A stretch of 64,000 nucleotides of DNA from Eledone cirrhosa (taxonomy: Eukaryota), in assembly GCA_964016885.1 (NCBI GenBank), contig OZ024740.1, positions 327,050,001 through 327,114,000 of the forward strand. The letters run 5' to 3'. The first letter of the stretch is position 1, and each line of letters begins with the position of its first letter. Made by a program: the position numbers and the translations under genes. Positions 2,141-64,000 of the stretch are shown piece by piece. A model generated the notes under the pieces. It saw nothing but the letters and a program-made list of their open reading frames with translations. It ran no database searches and was not told where the DNA came from.

Positions 2141-3782
2141 TTCCCGTTGGAGGATCTCGAACTGGATCGTGGAAGATGTAGTATTATGATGATGTATATG
2201 AACAATGTCACATTGGCTGTAAAGCGGTGTAATGGTTACGAGAAATTACTTGTGTGCGCTTTAGCACTATGAAGAAAACTGTAGTAAAATCCCAACCGCT
2301 TGGCACGCGCTCGGGGTTTTACATCTCTCTCTCTCTCTCTCTCTCTCTCTCTCTCTCTCTCTCTCTCTCTCTCTCTATATATATATATATATATATATAT
2401 ATATATATATATATATATATATATATGTGTGTGTGTGTGTGTGTTTGTATACATGTATATATATTAACGTTTGTGCATGTGTTTGCGTATTTGTACATAC
2501 ACACGGAACAACGATGAAGCATCTCCTTAGTTGCCTTGCATTTAAGAAATAGAAAACACTAAACTCTTCATCCAAACTCAATCTACAATCTAGGTATTAT
2601 ATATTATCTCTAAAAATAAAAGAAGACGGGATGGTCACAGCTAGAATGTCTTGATGGATGGCAAATTGGTTGAAGCGTCGGCGCCTTCGACAAAACGCTG
2701 TACATTCTGAGATAAATTCTCGCTGGGGTCAAGTTTCCCCTGCAGCTTGTCCACTCTGTTTCAAGTATTTGTTTGTTTCAAAGTTTTCGGCATGAAGATA
2801 CCTTTCCCATCCCTGCATGGAGGTTTCCCATCATGGAGGTTGCTCAAATAGACATGGATACTGTTCTTTCTTTCTATTATAAAGAAATTCTAAATCTGTC
2901 CAATCTCAGACAGCTTAAGGCTAAATAAACAACAACAATTAAAATTTATGTAATTGTTTACAGAAAGACGCTAATGTTATGGAGTTTCAGTTCGTATTTT
3001 AATCAAGATTGCACCAACAATATATATTCTTTTTTTTATGGAAAAATAAATGTTTTATCTCAATACATGTGTTTCCCTCACTAAGTTGGCTTTAAAATCT
3101 TTGATAATTACATAAATATGAAAAAGAAAAGATAAAAACAAATTTAAGTAATGAGAAAAGGGGGAAGGGGGAAGAGCAGATCTGGATGGGATCAGTATGG
3201 GAAAGTAAAGGAAATGCATACAAATGTCATAAATGAGAGAAAAAGGAGGGAAAAGGCAAGGAATCTTGGGTCACAGAAGAAAGGGGGTGGGTGATGGGCT
3301 CTGGGTCTAGGGTGAAGGAGTGTTTGGGTTGTGTCTGAAGGATGAATGAAAATATATATTCTTAATTTTGTGCTTACATCACAACGAAACCATTTATGTG
3401 ACACAATATGAAAACTTAAGTAATAATAGTCTAACAAATATTATTTTGCATTATTCTCTGATCTGAAGTTAGATATGTCAGAAACTCATTCCAATAAGTT
3501 GTGTGATACGACATGTCACGTGTACACAGAAAAAGCAGCGTCTTCAGTAGCAGCCTCTATAATTTCCTTTCTTTTTCTCTTCATCACTCTCGATTATTGG
3601 GACTCTCTGTTTTGTTAGTCTGCATTTCCCCCACTCTCATTCTCGGTCCCTCCCTCTCAATATATATATATATATATATATATATATATATATATATATA
3701 TATATATATAAAGAAAAAGAGATGAAATCGAAAATGCAACTGAAGTCTTATTTTTTTAAAAAATATATATATTTATTTGGTT

Positions 3783-3820
3783 CCTTTACCGGTTTCGCAG
3801 TTCTTCTGCTTTTCAAAAGG
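3783..3820 (-). ncRNA. Hammerhead ribozyme, family A (inverted arm)
   Basis: Exact reverse complement of 3905-3942. Confidence 0.8.
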
Positions 3821-3904
3821 TGAGTTGAGATGGAGGGTCTGTGGTTTTTCTCACATGGTTTTTCTCAGATGTGAGAAAAACCACAGACCCTCCATCTCAA
3901 CTCA

Positions 3905-3942
3905 CCTTTTGAAAAGCAGAAGAACTGCGAAACCGGTAAAGG
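3905..3942 (+). ncRNA. Type I hammerhead ribozyme, U3-A8 core variant (family A)
   Basis: cctt-TTGAAAA-gcag aagaa ctgc-GAAA-ccgg-TA-aagg: stem I, stem II and a palindromic stem III. Confidence 0.8.
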
Positions 3943-5395
3943 AACCAAATAAATATATATATTTAAAAAAAAAAAATAAGACTTCAGTTGCATTTTCGAT
4001 TTTATCTCTTTTTCTTTATACTTTCACTCGTGTAGGACACCTCGGTTATTTTTCATTTTGTAAAAAAAACCTCACTTTCTAATATATATATATATATATA
4101 TATATATATATATATATATATATATATATATATATATATATATATATATATATATATATATATATATATTTATATGTGTGTGTGTGTGTGAGTGTAATAT
4201 ATATATATATATCCTGCTATTAATTTTGTCTCTCACTCTTTTAAGTTGTGGATTAGACTGGTTATCTACACACGCGGCTGACATATTTCAGCTCGCTACT
4301 ATATTGCTATATAATGGATGATCGCATTTAAAGTCCGTTAAAGGTTATTGGCATTACCGTTGTTACCATCGCTTTCCTCTAGCCATGGGGCTTGGAGACA
4401 TGAACCGAATGCTACCATTCTATTTTATATCAATGTGAACTGCTATTTCTAATAGCCATCTTTTCACCCCTTGATAATTTGTGTGAGACACGTTGGCTGA
4501 GGTCTTTTGACGGGAACGGAAAGATTGATTCTTTAGCTTCCTGTCCCCACGTAAAATTTGTAAATCAGTGGCTAGTTGGGAGATAGAGTCCTATCGGGTG
4601 CCAGTTGCTAATAGCTTTACCGTGTCAGTCGTCACAAACAGACATGGCCGGCATAGACTGGTCGTAGGATTCTGTTGATCGATTGGTTATTGATTAGGCG
4701 ATACCCGCTGAAGAAGCCGCATAAGCCGATTGTGCATTGTTGCATACTATATGCAGACAGATGGTGCAGTGCACCTTGCTGCTGCATTAGAATGTATCTT
4801 ACATGGAGCATGCTGAGATACAACCGGTACTGGCATTGATAAATATGGTGGGTCCGTCAACCCTTATATATATATATATATATATATATATATATATATA
4901 TATATAAATGGAAAAAATGAAACAAAATTTCATTTCTCACTCTTAGTACGGCTGTTACTTAAATATAAGTATGTATACGTACATACATATATGTATACAG
5001 ACGTACAGTAGTATGTATATCTATATACATACATGCACACATATATATATATATATATGTGCATGTATGTATATATATATATACATACTACTGTACGTCT
5101 GTATACATATATGTATGTACGTATACATACTTATATATATATATTTATATATATATATATATATATATATATATATATATATATATATATATATATATAT
5201 ATGTATATATATATATATGTATGCATATGTGTATATAATGTAAAATATGAAAATTAAAATTTTAATAATATACACGTACTGTTGTCTATATGAGAACCAC
5301 GACTTCTACTGCTGCTACTCCTCCTCCTCCTCCTCCTCATACTACTACTACTACTACTACTACTACTACTACTACTACTACTACTACAGCATTAA

Positions 5396-62400: not shown

Positions 62401-62687
62401 TATATATATACATATATATATACATATATATATGTATATATATATATACATATATATATATACATATATATATGTATATATATACATATATCTATACATA
62501 TATATATGTATATATATATATACATATATATATATATATATATATATATATATATATATATATATATATATATATATATATATATATATATATATATATA
62601 TATATACATACATATATATATGTATATATATATGTATATATATATGTATATATATATATGTATACATATATATATATATATATATAT

Positions 62688-63168
62688 ATTTCGTTTCTGA
62701 ATTTGTTTAGCAAGATTCTTTATCTGAAATCGTGTGTTGAAACCGATATTGTTATACTTTGGGAGGGTCATGTTGCCAATAAGAAACACACGCACCAGTT
62801 GCTTTCACTTCAATTTATTATAATAAATTTATAATAAGTTTATAAATTTATAAATTTCTGGTTGGTTGGTTGGTTCCACAACCAGATAGTTGTTTATATA
62901 TAGTCATAGTTCTTTCGTCACACACTCTGTGACCTCTTCAGTGACACAGAAACAAAGAAAGGAATCCCCAGTCACTGAAGAGGTCACAGAGTGTGTGACG
63001 AAAGAACTATGACTATATATAAACAACTATCTGGTTGTGGAACCAACCAACCAACCAGAAATTTATAAATTTATAAACTTATTATAAATTTATTATAATA
63101 AATTGAAGTCAAAGTTACTGGTGCGTGTGTTTCTTATTGGCAACATGACCCTCCCAAAGTATAACAAT
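62688..63168. mobile_element. Family E fold-back element with two HHRs (62903-62945 minus, 62970-63014 plus)
   Basis: Arms 62747-62945 and 62971-63168. agtca-CTGAAGA-g gtcaca gagtg tgtgac-GAAA-gaac-TA-tgact. Confidence 0.8.
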
Positions 63169-63787
63169 ATATATATATATATATATATATATATATATAT
63201 ATATATATATATATATATATATATATATGTGTGTGTGTATATATATGTGTGTATATGGGTGTGTGTGTGTGCAAAAAGTGAACAGAAATAACAAACGACA
63301 CAGTACAATGAAGATATATAGATATATATATATATATATATACACATACAAATATATATGTATACATACATATATATTATATATATATATATATATATAT
63401 ATATATATATATATATATATATATATATATATATATATATATATATGTATATATATATATACATGATAAAAAGCGCTTAATGATTTAGACATATTTTCCT
63501 CTTAAAGCTGGTGGTAGAATGGCGACAAATCATACTGTAAATATAAATACTGGACTTCTACAGTATGATGTTGATCTATATCATTTCGTTTGTATCCACA
63601 ACGATCTCTCTCTCTCCCTCTCTCTCTCTCTCTCTCTCTCTCTCTCTCTCTCTCTCTCTCTCTCTCTCTCTATCTTTCTATATCTCTATATTTATATATT
63701 GTACATGTGTGTGTGTATTTTTATATATGTATGCGTATATATATGTATATATATATATATACACACACACACACATATATATATATA

Positions 63788-64000
63788 TTTCGTTTCTGAA
63801 TTTGTTTAGCAAGATTCTTTATCTGAAAACGTGTGTTGAAACCGATATTGTTATACTTTAGGAGGGTCATGTTGCCAATAAGAAACACACGCACCAGTTG
63901 CTTTCACTTCAATTTATTATAATAAATTTATAAATTTAGGAATTTATAAATTTCCGGTTGGTTGGTTGGTTCCACAGCCAGATGGTTGTTTATATATTGT
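63788..64000 (-). mobile_element. Second family E copy, running off the window edge
   Basis: Highly similar to 62688-62900. Confidence 0.85.

What the first reader, a model, noticed from the sequence alone, without database searches (positions are those of the whole stretch)
3708..64000. About nine distinct hammerhead-ribozyme-bearing element families colonising (TA)n microsatellites
Seen: the short unique islands between TA runs are not random. Families A, B, C, D, E, F, G, H and J are unrelated in sequence, yet each folds as stem I - YUGANRA - stem II - GAAA (GCAA in B) - short stem III - UH - stem I', giving about 20 motifs in 64 kb. Family B is physically the pLTR of an RT/GIY-YIG element, and F carries an endonuclease C-terminal remnant. 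Established: Penelope-like element pLTRs carry minimal type I HHRs. Inference: this is a diverse, TA-targeted set of PLE-derived or retrozyme-like elements that simple-repeat masking would hide. Whether it is already described in this genome cannot be judged from the window.
Basis: partly seen in the sequence, partly recalled or inferred. Interest (0 to 1): 0.9.

Follow-up and report, generated by a model that had tools for sequence, protein, structure and literature searches.

The report
Penelope transposon ends with paired hairpins
The ribozyme-bearing islands between the TA repeats are truncated tail-ends of nine families of Penelope-like retrotransposons, a known kind, but they show a twice-repeated RNA hairpin that likely positions the two points where copying starts, one on each DNA strand.

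Summary
In detail: 17 intact type I hammerhead motifs in the window against at most 2 in shuffles, about 21 with decayed copies, in nine families. They are not stand-alone small elements. Every family continues upstream into a Penelope-like (PLE) RT/GIY-YIG ORF elsewhere in the genome. Six carry Hydra-clade motifs and three Neptune/Nematis-type motifs. Hammerheads in pLTRs, solo copies, (TA)n targeting, inverted copies and the 'tail' are published, including an Octopus Hydra element (PMC4209133, PMC8557442). Two details were not found in my searches. (1) Each family ends at two fixed sites, and 125 of 131 inverted insertions use one site at each end; the literature only calls the tail optional at one end. 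(2) In Hydra families a covarying bulged hairpin (RCTC...YN-GAGY-RCT) sits 6-9 nt 3' of the end sites, twice in G, E and D. It also appears in published coral, sea cucumber and copepod consensi. Likely mechanism: an RT-endonuclease dimer binds both hairpins and primes both nicked (TA)n strands. Self-cleavage and expression are untested; insertion ends do not coincide with the cleavage site.

The parts
3706..4082 (.). Family A inverted insertion: left arm ends at site 1, right arm at site 2; hammerhead cores at 3816(-) and 3909(+), U3:A8 core
6317..6632 (.). Family C (Hydra-type) inverted insertion; hammerheads at 6465(-), 6547(+); left arm carries the 65-nt tail
6644..7185 (-). Family B solo 3' end with GCAA hammerhead at 6805 and a short direct duplicate (7110-7185)
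7330..7955 (+). Family D 5'-truncated 3' UTR with hammerhead at 7852 (5' boundary approximate)
14018..14260 (-). Family D2 3' end with hammerhead at 14123 (5' boundary approximate)
14266..15336 (+). Family G insertion: inverted tail arm (14266-14447, hairpin 1 at 14317-14343 on -), endonuclease C-terminal remnant (14443-14544), 3' UTR, large U3:A8 hammerhead at 15231
20796..21012 (.). Family E inverted insertion; hammerhead at 20907(+); hairpin 1 at 20853-20875(-)
29216..29373 (-). Family A solo 3' end, hammerhead at 29326
29419..29622 (.). Family G short inverted insertion, ribozyme core truncated away
34412..38455 (-). Family B Penelope-like element: 5'-truncated ORF1 and RT-linker-GIY-YIG ORF2 (38334-35722, broken by frameshifts here, open in L002), 3' UTR, hammerhead at 34613, tail, plus inverted 3'-end arm 38334-38455
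40880..42240 (.). Family H inverted insertion with a later TA-flanked insert in the middle; mutated hammerheads near 41010(-) and 42170(+); hairpin 1 at 40924-40945(-)
42253..42454 (-). Family A 3' end with tail, hammerhead at 42424
42455..42575 (+). 3' end of a further, unassigned family carrying the Hydra-type hairpin (42520-42548); no intact ribozyme core
51575..51742 (+). Family D 3' end, hammerhead at 51645
51755..51951 (.). G-subfamily short inverted insertion, core truncated away
57542..57952 (.). Family E inverted insertion; hammerheads at 57734(-), 57849(+); hairpin 1 at 57606-57628(-)
58117..58300 (.). Family H inverted insertion; hammerhead near 58232(+)
58310..58376 (+). Interrupted family E fragment (5' half of hammerhead)
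   Evidence: sequence
59267..59487 (-). Family A 3' end with decayed hammerhead
62689..63170 (.). Family F inverted insertion; hammerheads at 62941(-), 62975(+); left arm carries the 60-nt tail
63788..64000 (-). Family F 3' end with tail, running off the window

Best explanation
The islands are 5'-truncated and often inverted 3' ends (pLTRs) of nine families of (TA)n-targeting Penelope-like retrotransposons, and each insertion is likely made by an RT-endonuclease dimer that nicks both strands of a TA run and likely starts reverse transcription at two fixed RNA sites, one per strand. Shown: linkage of every family to a PLE ORF; two discrete end sites 40-90 nt apart, 17-218 nt 3' of the predicted ribozyme cut; TA abutment; one-of-each use of the two sites in inverted insertions; and, in Hydra-type families, a covarying hairpin 6-9 nt 3' of the sites. 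Inferred: the hairpins are the protein-binding sites that set the start points; a 1-6 nt UA-type match pairs with the nicked primer; the two cDNAs stop at variable points and join head to head, giving the palindromic islands; the template is mostly RNA uncut at its 3' ribozyme (or re-ligated), so the hammerhead is a passenger in these fragments and would act, if at all, on long tandem precursor RNA.
For: ORF linkage: A (L180), B (L002), C (L204/L205/L217 share one EN at 94-96%), D (L235), D2 (L187), E (L272/L273), F (L182; L111/L117/L118), G (L176), H (L280). End sites; public runs X1 and X4 show loose (AT)n ends at both G sites. Polarity: among the first 100 listed E matches, 36 divergent pairs within 10 kb vs 1 convergent; H 20 vs 1. 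Mixed ends: 125 of 131 pairs, 83 of 85 pairs of 700 bp or less. Hairpin: 281 hits vs 2-5 in 5 shuffles; with sequence-only anchors, upper-stem pairing is 61 of 84 vs 37.7 +/- 4.0, 0 of 2000 shuffles; 30 double-sided changes in 21 aligned hairpins vs 8.3. Same hairpin read by eye in published Hydra consensi. A Poseidon PLE nicks and extends both strands, starts at two internal sites and is predicted to be a dimer (PMC11167929).
Against: No biochemical or RNA evidence here. Site-2 arms show no clear pile-up at site 1 (11 of about 207 within 10 nt), so use of a single RNA molecule is not shown. H has only the 5' half of hairpin 2, and the sequence past C's site 2 was not recovered. D almost never uses site 2 (2-3 of 49 ends) although its second hairpin is intact. 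Neptune-type A, B and F follow the mixed-end rule without this hairpin. In vitro, the Poseidon element showed no strand difference in start-site use and no homology at the start site (PMC11167929). Loci were chosen through family queries, not at random. The hairpins aligned were mostly picked by a pairing-based scan.
Confidence: 0.68

Rival explanations
1. Same PLE ends, but the inverted arm and the one-sided tail arise later, by fold-back or self-priming and endonuclease resolution of the intermediate; the hairpin is a promoter, endonuclease-recognition or packaging signal, not the RT positioning site.
For: Proposed in PMC3846280 (self-priming, palindromic junctions; passages) and PMC8557442 (EN-mediated resolution). 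The tail was needed for endonuclease recognition in D. virilis Penelope, as cited in PMC11167929. No collision signal at site 1.
Against: The fixed 6-9 nt spacing to both end sites and the duplication of the hairpin in G and E fit start-site positioning. G-U pairs and upper-stem covariation point to RNA structure. In vitro the tail equals the span between two RT starts (PMC11167929).
Confidence: 0.25
2. The islands are non-autonomous retrozyme- or SINE-like elements that cycle through self-cleaved circular RNAs and are mobilised in trans.
For: A 221-bp tandem trimer built from H's ribozyme, tail and ORF start exists (L285). The H 32-mer has an unexplained strand skew, 3364 vs 1151, which a tandem array could cause. 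Short end copies dominate every family.
Against: No shared 5' boundary in any family; all extend into ORFs; window copies are monomers or inverted pairs, never tandem; the L285 junction occurs once.
Confidence: 0.06
3. The motifs are chance matches in AT-rich DNA, or the palindromes are assembly artefacts.
For: Several motifs fold no better than shuffles as monomers (z -0.9 to +0.6 for A, B, E, H). Covariation in the H group is not significant.
Against: 17 vs at most 2 in shuffles; 321 vs 0-3 in 1.42 Mb of loci; E-group stems show 29 double-sided changes vs 10.3; opposite-strand joints and TA ends appear in public run contigs; the two arms differ by the tail.
Confidence: 0.01

Closest known systems
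Hydra clade of Penelope-like elements (Craig et al. 2021, PMC8557442), including Hydra-1_Obim of Octopus bimaculoides
   Same: C-terminal GIY-YIG without CCHH, DKT motif, CxCX5C linker, CxxC and CxH, 3' hammerhead (often U.U at 10.1-11.1), (TA)n insertion, inverted copies and tail.
   Different: Many more families in one genome (6 in this window; 22 hammerhead clusters with 2+ members in 1.42 Mb of biased loci, all clades together), RWR instead of RWK, UTRs up to 2-3 kb, tails of 65-90 nt, a large branched U3:A8 ribozyme in G. The hairpin and the one-of-each rule are not in the sections I read.
Neptune/Nematis-type PLEs
   Same: CX4CxxC linker before a C-terminal GIY-YIG (A, B, F), CCHH-type EN and DKG (B), upstream ORF1 in the -1 frame (A, B).
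   Different: Clade not resolved by phylogeny; B's ribozyme has GCAA and a 3-bp A-U stem I.
Minimal hammerheads of metazoan PLEs (Cervera and de la Pena 2014, PMC4209133)
   Same: Many consensus families per genome, mostly solo copies from truncated PLEs, opposite-strand pairs 100-700 bp apart, U3-A8 variant, palindromic stem III.
   Different: C and G have a 4-5 bp stem III and fold as monomers in prediction.
Poseidon PAc of Anolis (Frangieh et al. 2024, PMC11167929)
   Same: Two internal RT start sites 3' of the ribozyme define the tail; both strands are cut and extended; the ribozyme is dispensable in vitro.
   Different: Here start sites carry a short UA match to the target, lie before the ORF, and sit next to a duplicated conserved hairpin rather than in an AC-rich stem loop.
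Non-LTR retrozymes (PMC7229834, listing only; bioRxiv 10.64898/2026.07.22.740005)
   Same: Type I hammerhead, pLTR ancestry; L285 fits the definition.
   Different: Window copies are not tandem units and belong to coding elements.

Membership tests
Type I hammerhead ribozyme | Conserved core CUGANGA...GAAA...UH (or U3:A8) at a three-stem junction with stem I open | tested here: met
   17 intact motifs; B deviates at A13 (GCAA)
Type I hammerhead ribozyme | Stem covariation | tested here: inconclusive
   Strong across 18 E-group subfamily sequences, not significant in 10 H-group sequences; other groups not counted; related sequences inflate the test
Type I hammerhead ribozyme | Self-cleavage at UH as monomer or dimer | not testable with these tools
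   No RNA run listed
Hydra-clade PLE (C, D, D2, E, G, H) | CxCX5C linker, no CCHH, CxxC and CxH in a C-terminal GIY-YIG | tested here: met
   Translations of C, D, E, G, H; D2 only by its EN C-terminus
Hydra-clade PLE (C, D, D2, E, G, H) | DKT and RWK motifs in the RT N-terminus | tested here: inconclusive
   DKT present in D, E, G, H; RWR instead of RWK; region not recovered for C and D2
Hydra-clade PLE (C, D, D2, E, G, H) | Single ORF, hammerhead in pLTR, (TA)n insertion | tested here: met
   L176, L235, L272/L273, L280
Hydra-clade PLE (C, D, D2, E, G, H) | RT phylogeny groups with reference Hydra elements | not tested
   Reference sequences were only viewed in the supplement
Neptune/Nematis-type PLE (A, B, F) | CX2-5CxxC linker and CCHH GIY-YIG C-terminal to RT | tested here: met
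   F has a CX4C spacing in the EN
Neptune/Nematis-type PLE (A, B, F) | RT phylogeny deciding Neptune versus Nematis | not tested
   Homologue search returned unnamed or mislabelled proteins
Non-LTR retrozyme | Tandem non-coding units each with a hammerhead | tested here: not met
   Not met in the window; met only at L285
Non-LTR retrozyme | Circular RNA intermediates | not testable with these tools
   No RNA run listed

The most novel reading that the evidence does not exclude
Hydra-clade Penelope elements across at least four animal phyla carry an undescribed, duplicated bulged RNA hairpin that docks the two subunits of a telomerase-related RT-endonuclease dimer, so that one RNP primes both strands of a nicked (TA)n site from two programmed positions. 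This would explain the PLE tail, the inverted copies and microsatellite targeting in one step, and it gives a cis signal of about 35 nt for loading any RNA onto the enzyme.
Probability: 0.5. Interest if true: 0.75.

Novelty: new variant of a known kind. Interest (0 to 1): 0.55.

Why it matters
How PLEs make their tail and inverted structures, and how they find microsatellites, is named as open in PMC8557442 (section 15) and only partly answered in vitro (PMC11167929). A defined hairpin with fixed spacing and a near-obligate one-of-each rule turn this into a direct experiment, and open ORFs at about 98% identity exist for family B (L002, L009, L010). The genome also holds thousands of copies per family (6,123 and 4,515 exact 32-mers for E and H) of a varied natural hammerhead set that Rfam misses. 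The bare finding, hammerheads in PLE ends at TA repeats, is expected from the literature.

Tried and rejected
Rfam: no hammerhead at gathering in the window, L176 or L285. DNA search for family E returned nothing because common words are skipped; a pattern search found 6,123 matches. No RNA holder listed, so expression, cut ends and circles are untested; the six runs listed are contigs of unrecorded kind, and X1/X2 may be the genome's source sample. Ends at the ribozyme cut: site-2 arms do not pile up there. Of 15 inspected copies that include an ORF start, 2 begin 1-2 nt after the cut (L196; L280 with 10 extra nt, read), 0 of 8 for B, and the 5 G, D and E copies were found through their ribozymes and so are biased (its H rows were spoiled by a TA run in my query and are not used). 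This is at most a weak hint of cleavage in vivo. Collision of the second RT at site 1: no clear excess. L285 as an amplified retrozyme family: its exact junction occurs once. L196 first looked like H's parent but is another family followed by nested ends. The D2 and F rows were spoiled by TA in the query, the B and C rows were cut from view, and A, B, C, D2 and F were redone. Hydra relatives in metagenome contigs: none confirmed; EN-only protein search: none. Earlier findings of the scan: none. No conserved twin hairpin was established for A, B, F; only by-eye leads.
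Full report
Observation. The window is AT- and microsatellite-rich animal DNA from a 3.0-Gb assembly in 1,796 contigs. That the host is an octopod is my guess from recalled repeat features; no call shows it. A scan for type I hammerheads found 17 intact motifs against a mean of 0.05-0.23 (maximum 2) in 60 local dinucleotide shuffles. Self-comparison groups them into families; with H and D2 there are nine. 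A, B and G use the U3:A8 core. D, D2, E and F have a palindromic, loopless or near-loopless stem III typical of dimer-acting motifs. C and G fold into the full three-stem shape as monomers (z -2.1 and -3.2), while A, B, E and H fold no better than shuffles. Across 18 E-group subfamily sequences, 92.8% of stem cells pair and 29 cells change on both sides against 10.3 in shuffles (0 of 500). Ten H-group sequences give 5 against 2.3 (22 of 500). Rfam reports none at gathering.

What they are. Own-genome searches returned up to 40 scored candidates per family at about 89-99% identity. Exact 32-mers give 6,123 matches for E and 4,515 for H, with reversed controls at 0. Longer copies link every family to a PLE ORF. 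B is the 3' end of a two-ORF element (455 aa plus 784 aa in the -1 frame) with RVT_1 (29.1 bits, just under the 29.6 cut-off) and GIY-YIG (29.9 bits, above cut-off) in the window. A is its sister. F follows a GIY-YIG ORF. G (L176), D (L235) and E (L272, L273) occur as pLTR-ORF-pLTR units, and H (L280) as an ORF between a short 5' pLTR and a full 3' end. C follows one shared endonuclease 2-3 kb upstream in three loci; D2 follows one in a single locus. C, D, E, G and H show the Hydra-clade signature listed in PMC8557442 section 11: CxCX5C, CxxC, CxH, no CCHH, and DKT where seen. A, B and F show the CX4CxxC linker of Neptune/Nematis. The fetched loci (1.42 Mb, chosen around family hits, overlaps included) hold 321 hammerhead hits against 0-3 in three shuffles, in 43 clusters, 22 with two or more members. 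Some TA tracts carry trains of ends from several families (L196).

End anatomy. 445 of 506 copy 3' ends abut (TA)4+ (G 110/120, D 46/49, E 55/61, H 68/79; A 43/60, B 22/24, C 43/49, F 58/64) against 676 of 12,968 random positions. Ends fall at two sites per family, 40-90 nt apart, 17-158 nt (site 1) and 92-218 nt (site 2) 3' of the predicted cut. Most sites begin with a 1-6 nt match to (TA)n. Contigs of public runs X1 and X4 show loose (AT)n ends at both G sites. Neighbouring copies are divergent: 36 against 1 convergent among the first 100 listed E matches, 20 against 1 for H. In 125 of 131 inverted pairs one arm ends at site 1 and the other at site 2; 4 are 1+1 and 2 are 2+2 (119 of 125 in the earlier count). 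Independence would give about 50%. The literature says only that the tail is optional at one end (PMC3846280 passages; PMC8557442 passages).

The hairpin. In Hydra-type families a motif RCTC - upper stem - loop - upper stem - 1-2 nt bulge starting with U - GAGY - RCT lies 6-9 nt 3' of site 1 (C, D, E, G, H, L196 family). It recurs 3' of site 2 in G and E, and a second copy lies before the ORF in D. It occurs 281 times in the loci against 2-5 in shuffles, in 28 clusters, a few of them spurious. With sequence anchors only, the first three upper-stem positions pair in 61 of 84 cells against 37.7 +/- 4.0, and the outer pair is A-U 11 times and G-C 5 times among 28 clusters. In 21 aligned hairpins 95.1% of cells pair, with 30 double-sided changes (partly circular, because most were picked by pairing). 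In the six new Hydra consensi of the PMC8557442 supplement, read by eye in passages, the motif is intact in Hydra-2_Amil (coral), Hydra-2_Ajap and twice in Hydra-1_Ajap (sea cucumber), imperfect twice in Hydra-1_Crog (copepod) and once in Hydra-1_Obim; Hydra-1_Amil ends before it.

Mechanism. I commit to paired priming. A dimeric RT-endonuclease binds the two hairpins of pLTR RNA and nicks both strands of a TA run. Each 3'-OH pairs briefly with the UA 5' of a hairpin and is extended; the two cDNAs end at variable points and join head to head. Shown: positions, pairing rule, conservation. Inferred: binding, dimer, single RNA, joining. Support from outside: the Anolis Poseidon protein extends both strands, starts at two internal sites that bound the tail, is modelled as a dimer and does not need its ribozyme in vitro (PMC11167929). 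Against: no pile-up of site-2 arms at site 1, D rarely uses site 2, H lacks a complete second hairpin, and A, B and F obey the rule without this hairpin. Since both start sites lie 3' of the ribozyme and arms run through it, the template was uncut or re-ligated there. B, the youngest family (97-98% identity over 2.6 kb), carries GCAA in 26 of 28 copies and a 3-bp A-U stem I, so an efficient ribozyme seems unnecessary for spread. Two Hydra-type copies starting 1-2 nt after the cut site are a weak hint of cleavage at the 5' pLTR.

Comparison and novelty. PMC4209133 (parts 1-2 of 4 read) already reports thousands of solo minimal hammerheads in many families per genome, opposite-strand pairs and U3-A8. 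PMC8557442 (sections 3, 11, 15, passages and supplement parts) reports (TA)n-targeting Hydra elements with hammerheads, including one from Octopus bimaculoides, whose ribozyme differs from the nine here. The O. vulgaris repeat paper PMC13282606 (passages) counts 31 recently active Penelope-like families and has no occurrence of hammerhead, ribozyme or Hydra in its main text. bioRxiv 10.64898/2026.07.22.740005 (parts 1-3 of 5; supplements closed) derives retrozymes from pLTRs; L285 shows such a derivation with its deletion junction. Nine literature searches showed no title or abstract on the hairpin or a quantified one-of-each rule. Subscription papers and Repbase reports are outside the library, so absence is not proven.

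Verdict. The hairpin and the paired-end rule make an open mechanistic question testable: interest 0.55.

Noticed in passing
L285:860-1530 (G000:C1:67880800-67881500): Tandem trimer of a 221-bp unit made from family H by internal deletion: ORF codon about 10 joined to the 3' UTR just before the ribozyme. A retrozyme-like array with its PLE parent identifiable.
   Followed up: partly
genome-wide: The H ribozyme 32-mer is strand-skewed, 3,364 forward vs 1,151 reverse, while the first 100 listed matches are balanced; a large tandem array somewhere is a possible cause.
   Followed up: partly
window 38002-38068 (-); L002; L180:4374: ORF1 and ORF2 of families A and B overlap in the -1 frame at a shared U UUU UUA heptamer, a likely programmed frameshift site; no strong downstream structure was predicted for B.
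   Followed up: partly
window 4907-5135, 11040-11150, 15379-15414, 20640-20755, 38863-38925, 41505-41585, 56665-56835, 59500-59640: Further TA-flanked islands, each repeated in 7-25 fetched loci; likely extreme 3' ends of more PLE families that lost the ribozyme by truncation.
   Followed up: partly
L021:1835-1885: Parent of the 11040-11150 island has a hammerhead-like fold with a CAGAAGA core (A in place of U4), read by eye.
   Followed up: no
L031, L166, L086, L183: Hammerheads with very long stem II inserts (60-105 nt) and extended stem III in other families.
   Followed up: no
window 1422-1618, 10360-10930, 21221-21573, 26680-26881, 32330-32721, 52854-53063, 58460-58695 and others: About 16 copies of a 200-bp SINE-like repeat not tied to TA runs.
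   Followed up: no
window 33372-33570: Short element with terminal inverted repeats flanked by TA, resembling a Tc1/mariner-type MITE (by eye).
   Followed up: no
window 46060-47840, 48826-50854, 53647-55849: Long trinucleotide arrays and a 2-kb 12-mer minisatellite.
   Followed up: no
families A, B, F tails: By eye, A and B share a small GTGT-N3-ACAC hairpin after site 1, and both F sites begin with TATCG; possible Neptune-type counterparts of the Hydra hairpin.
   Followed up: no
proteins P0067, P0102, P0104, P0114, P0121, P0127: PLE-like relatives of B (42-47% identity) are filed under bacterial symbiont names, probably host contamination of those assemblies.
   Followed up: no
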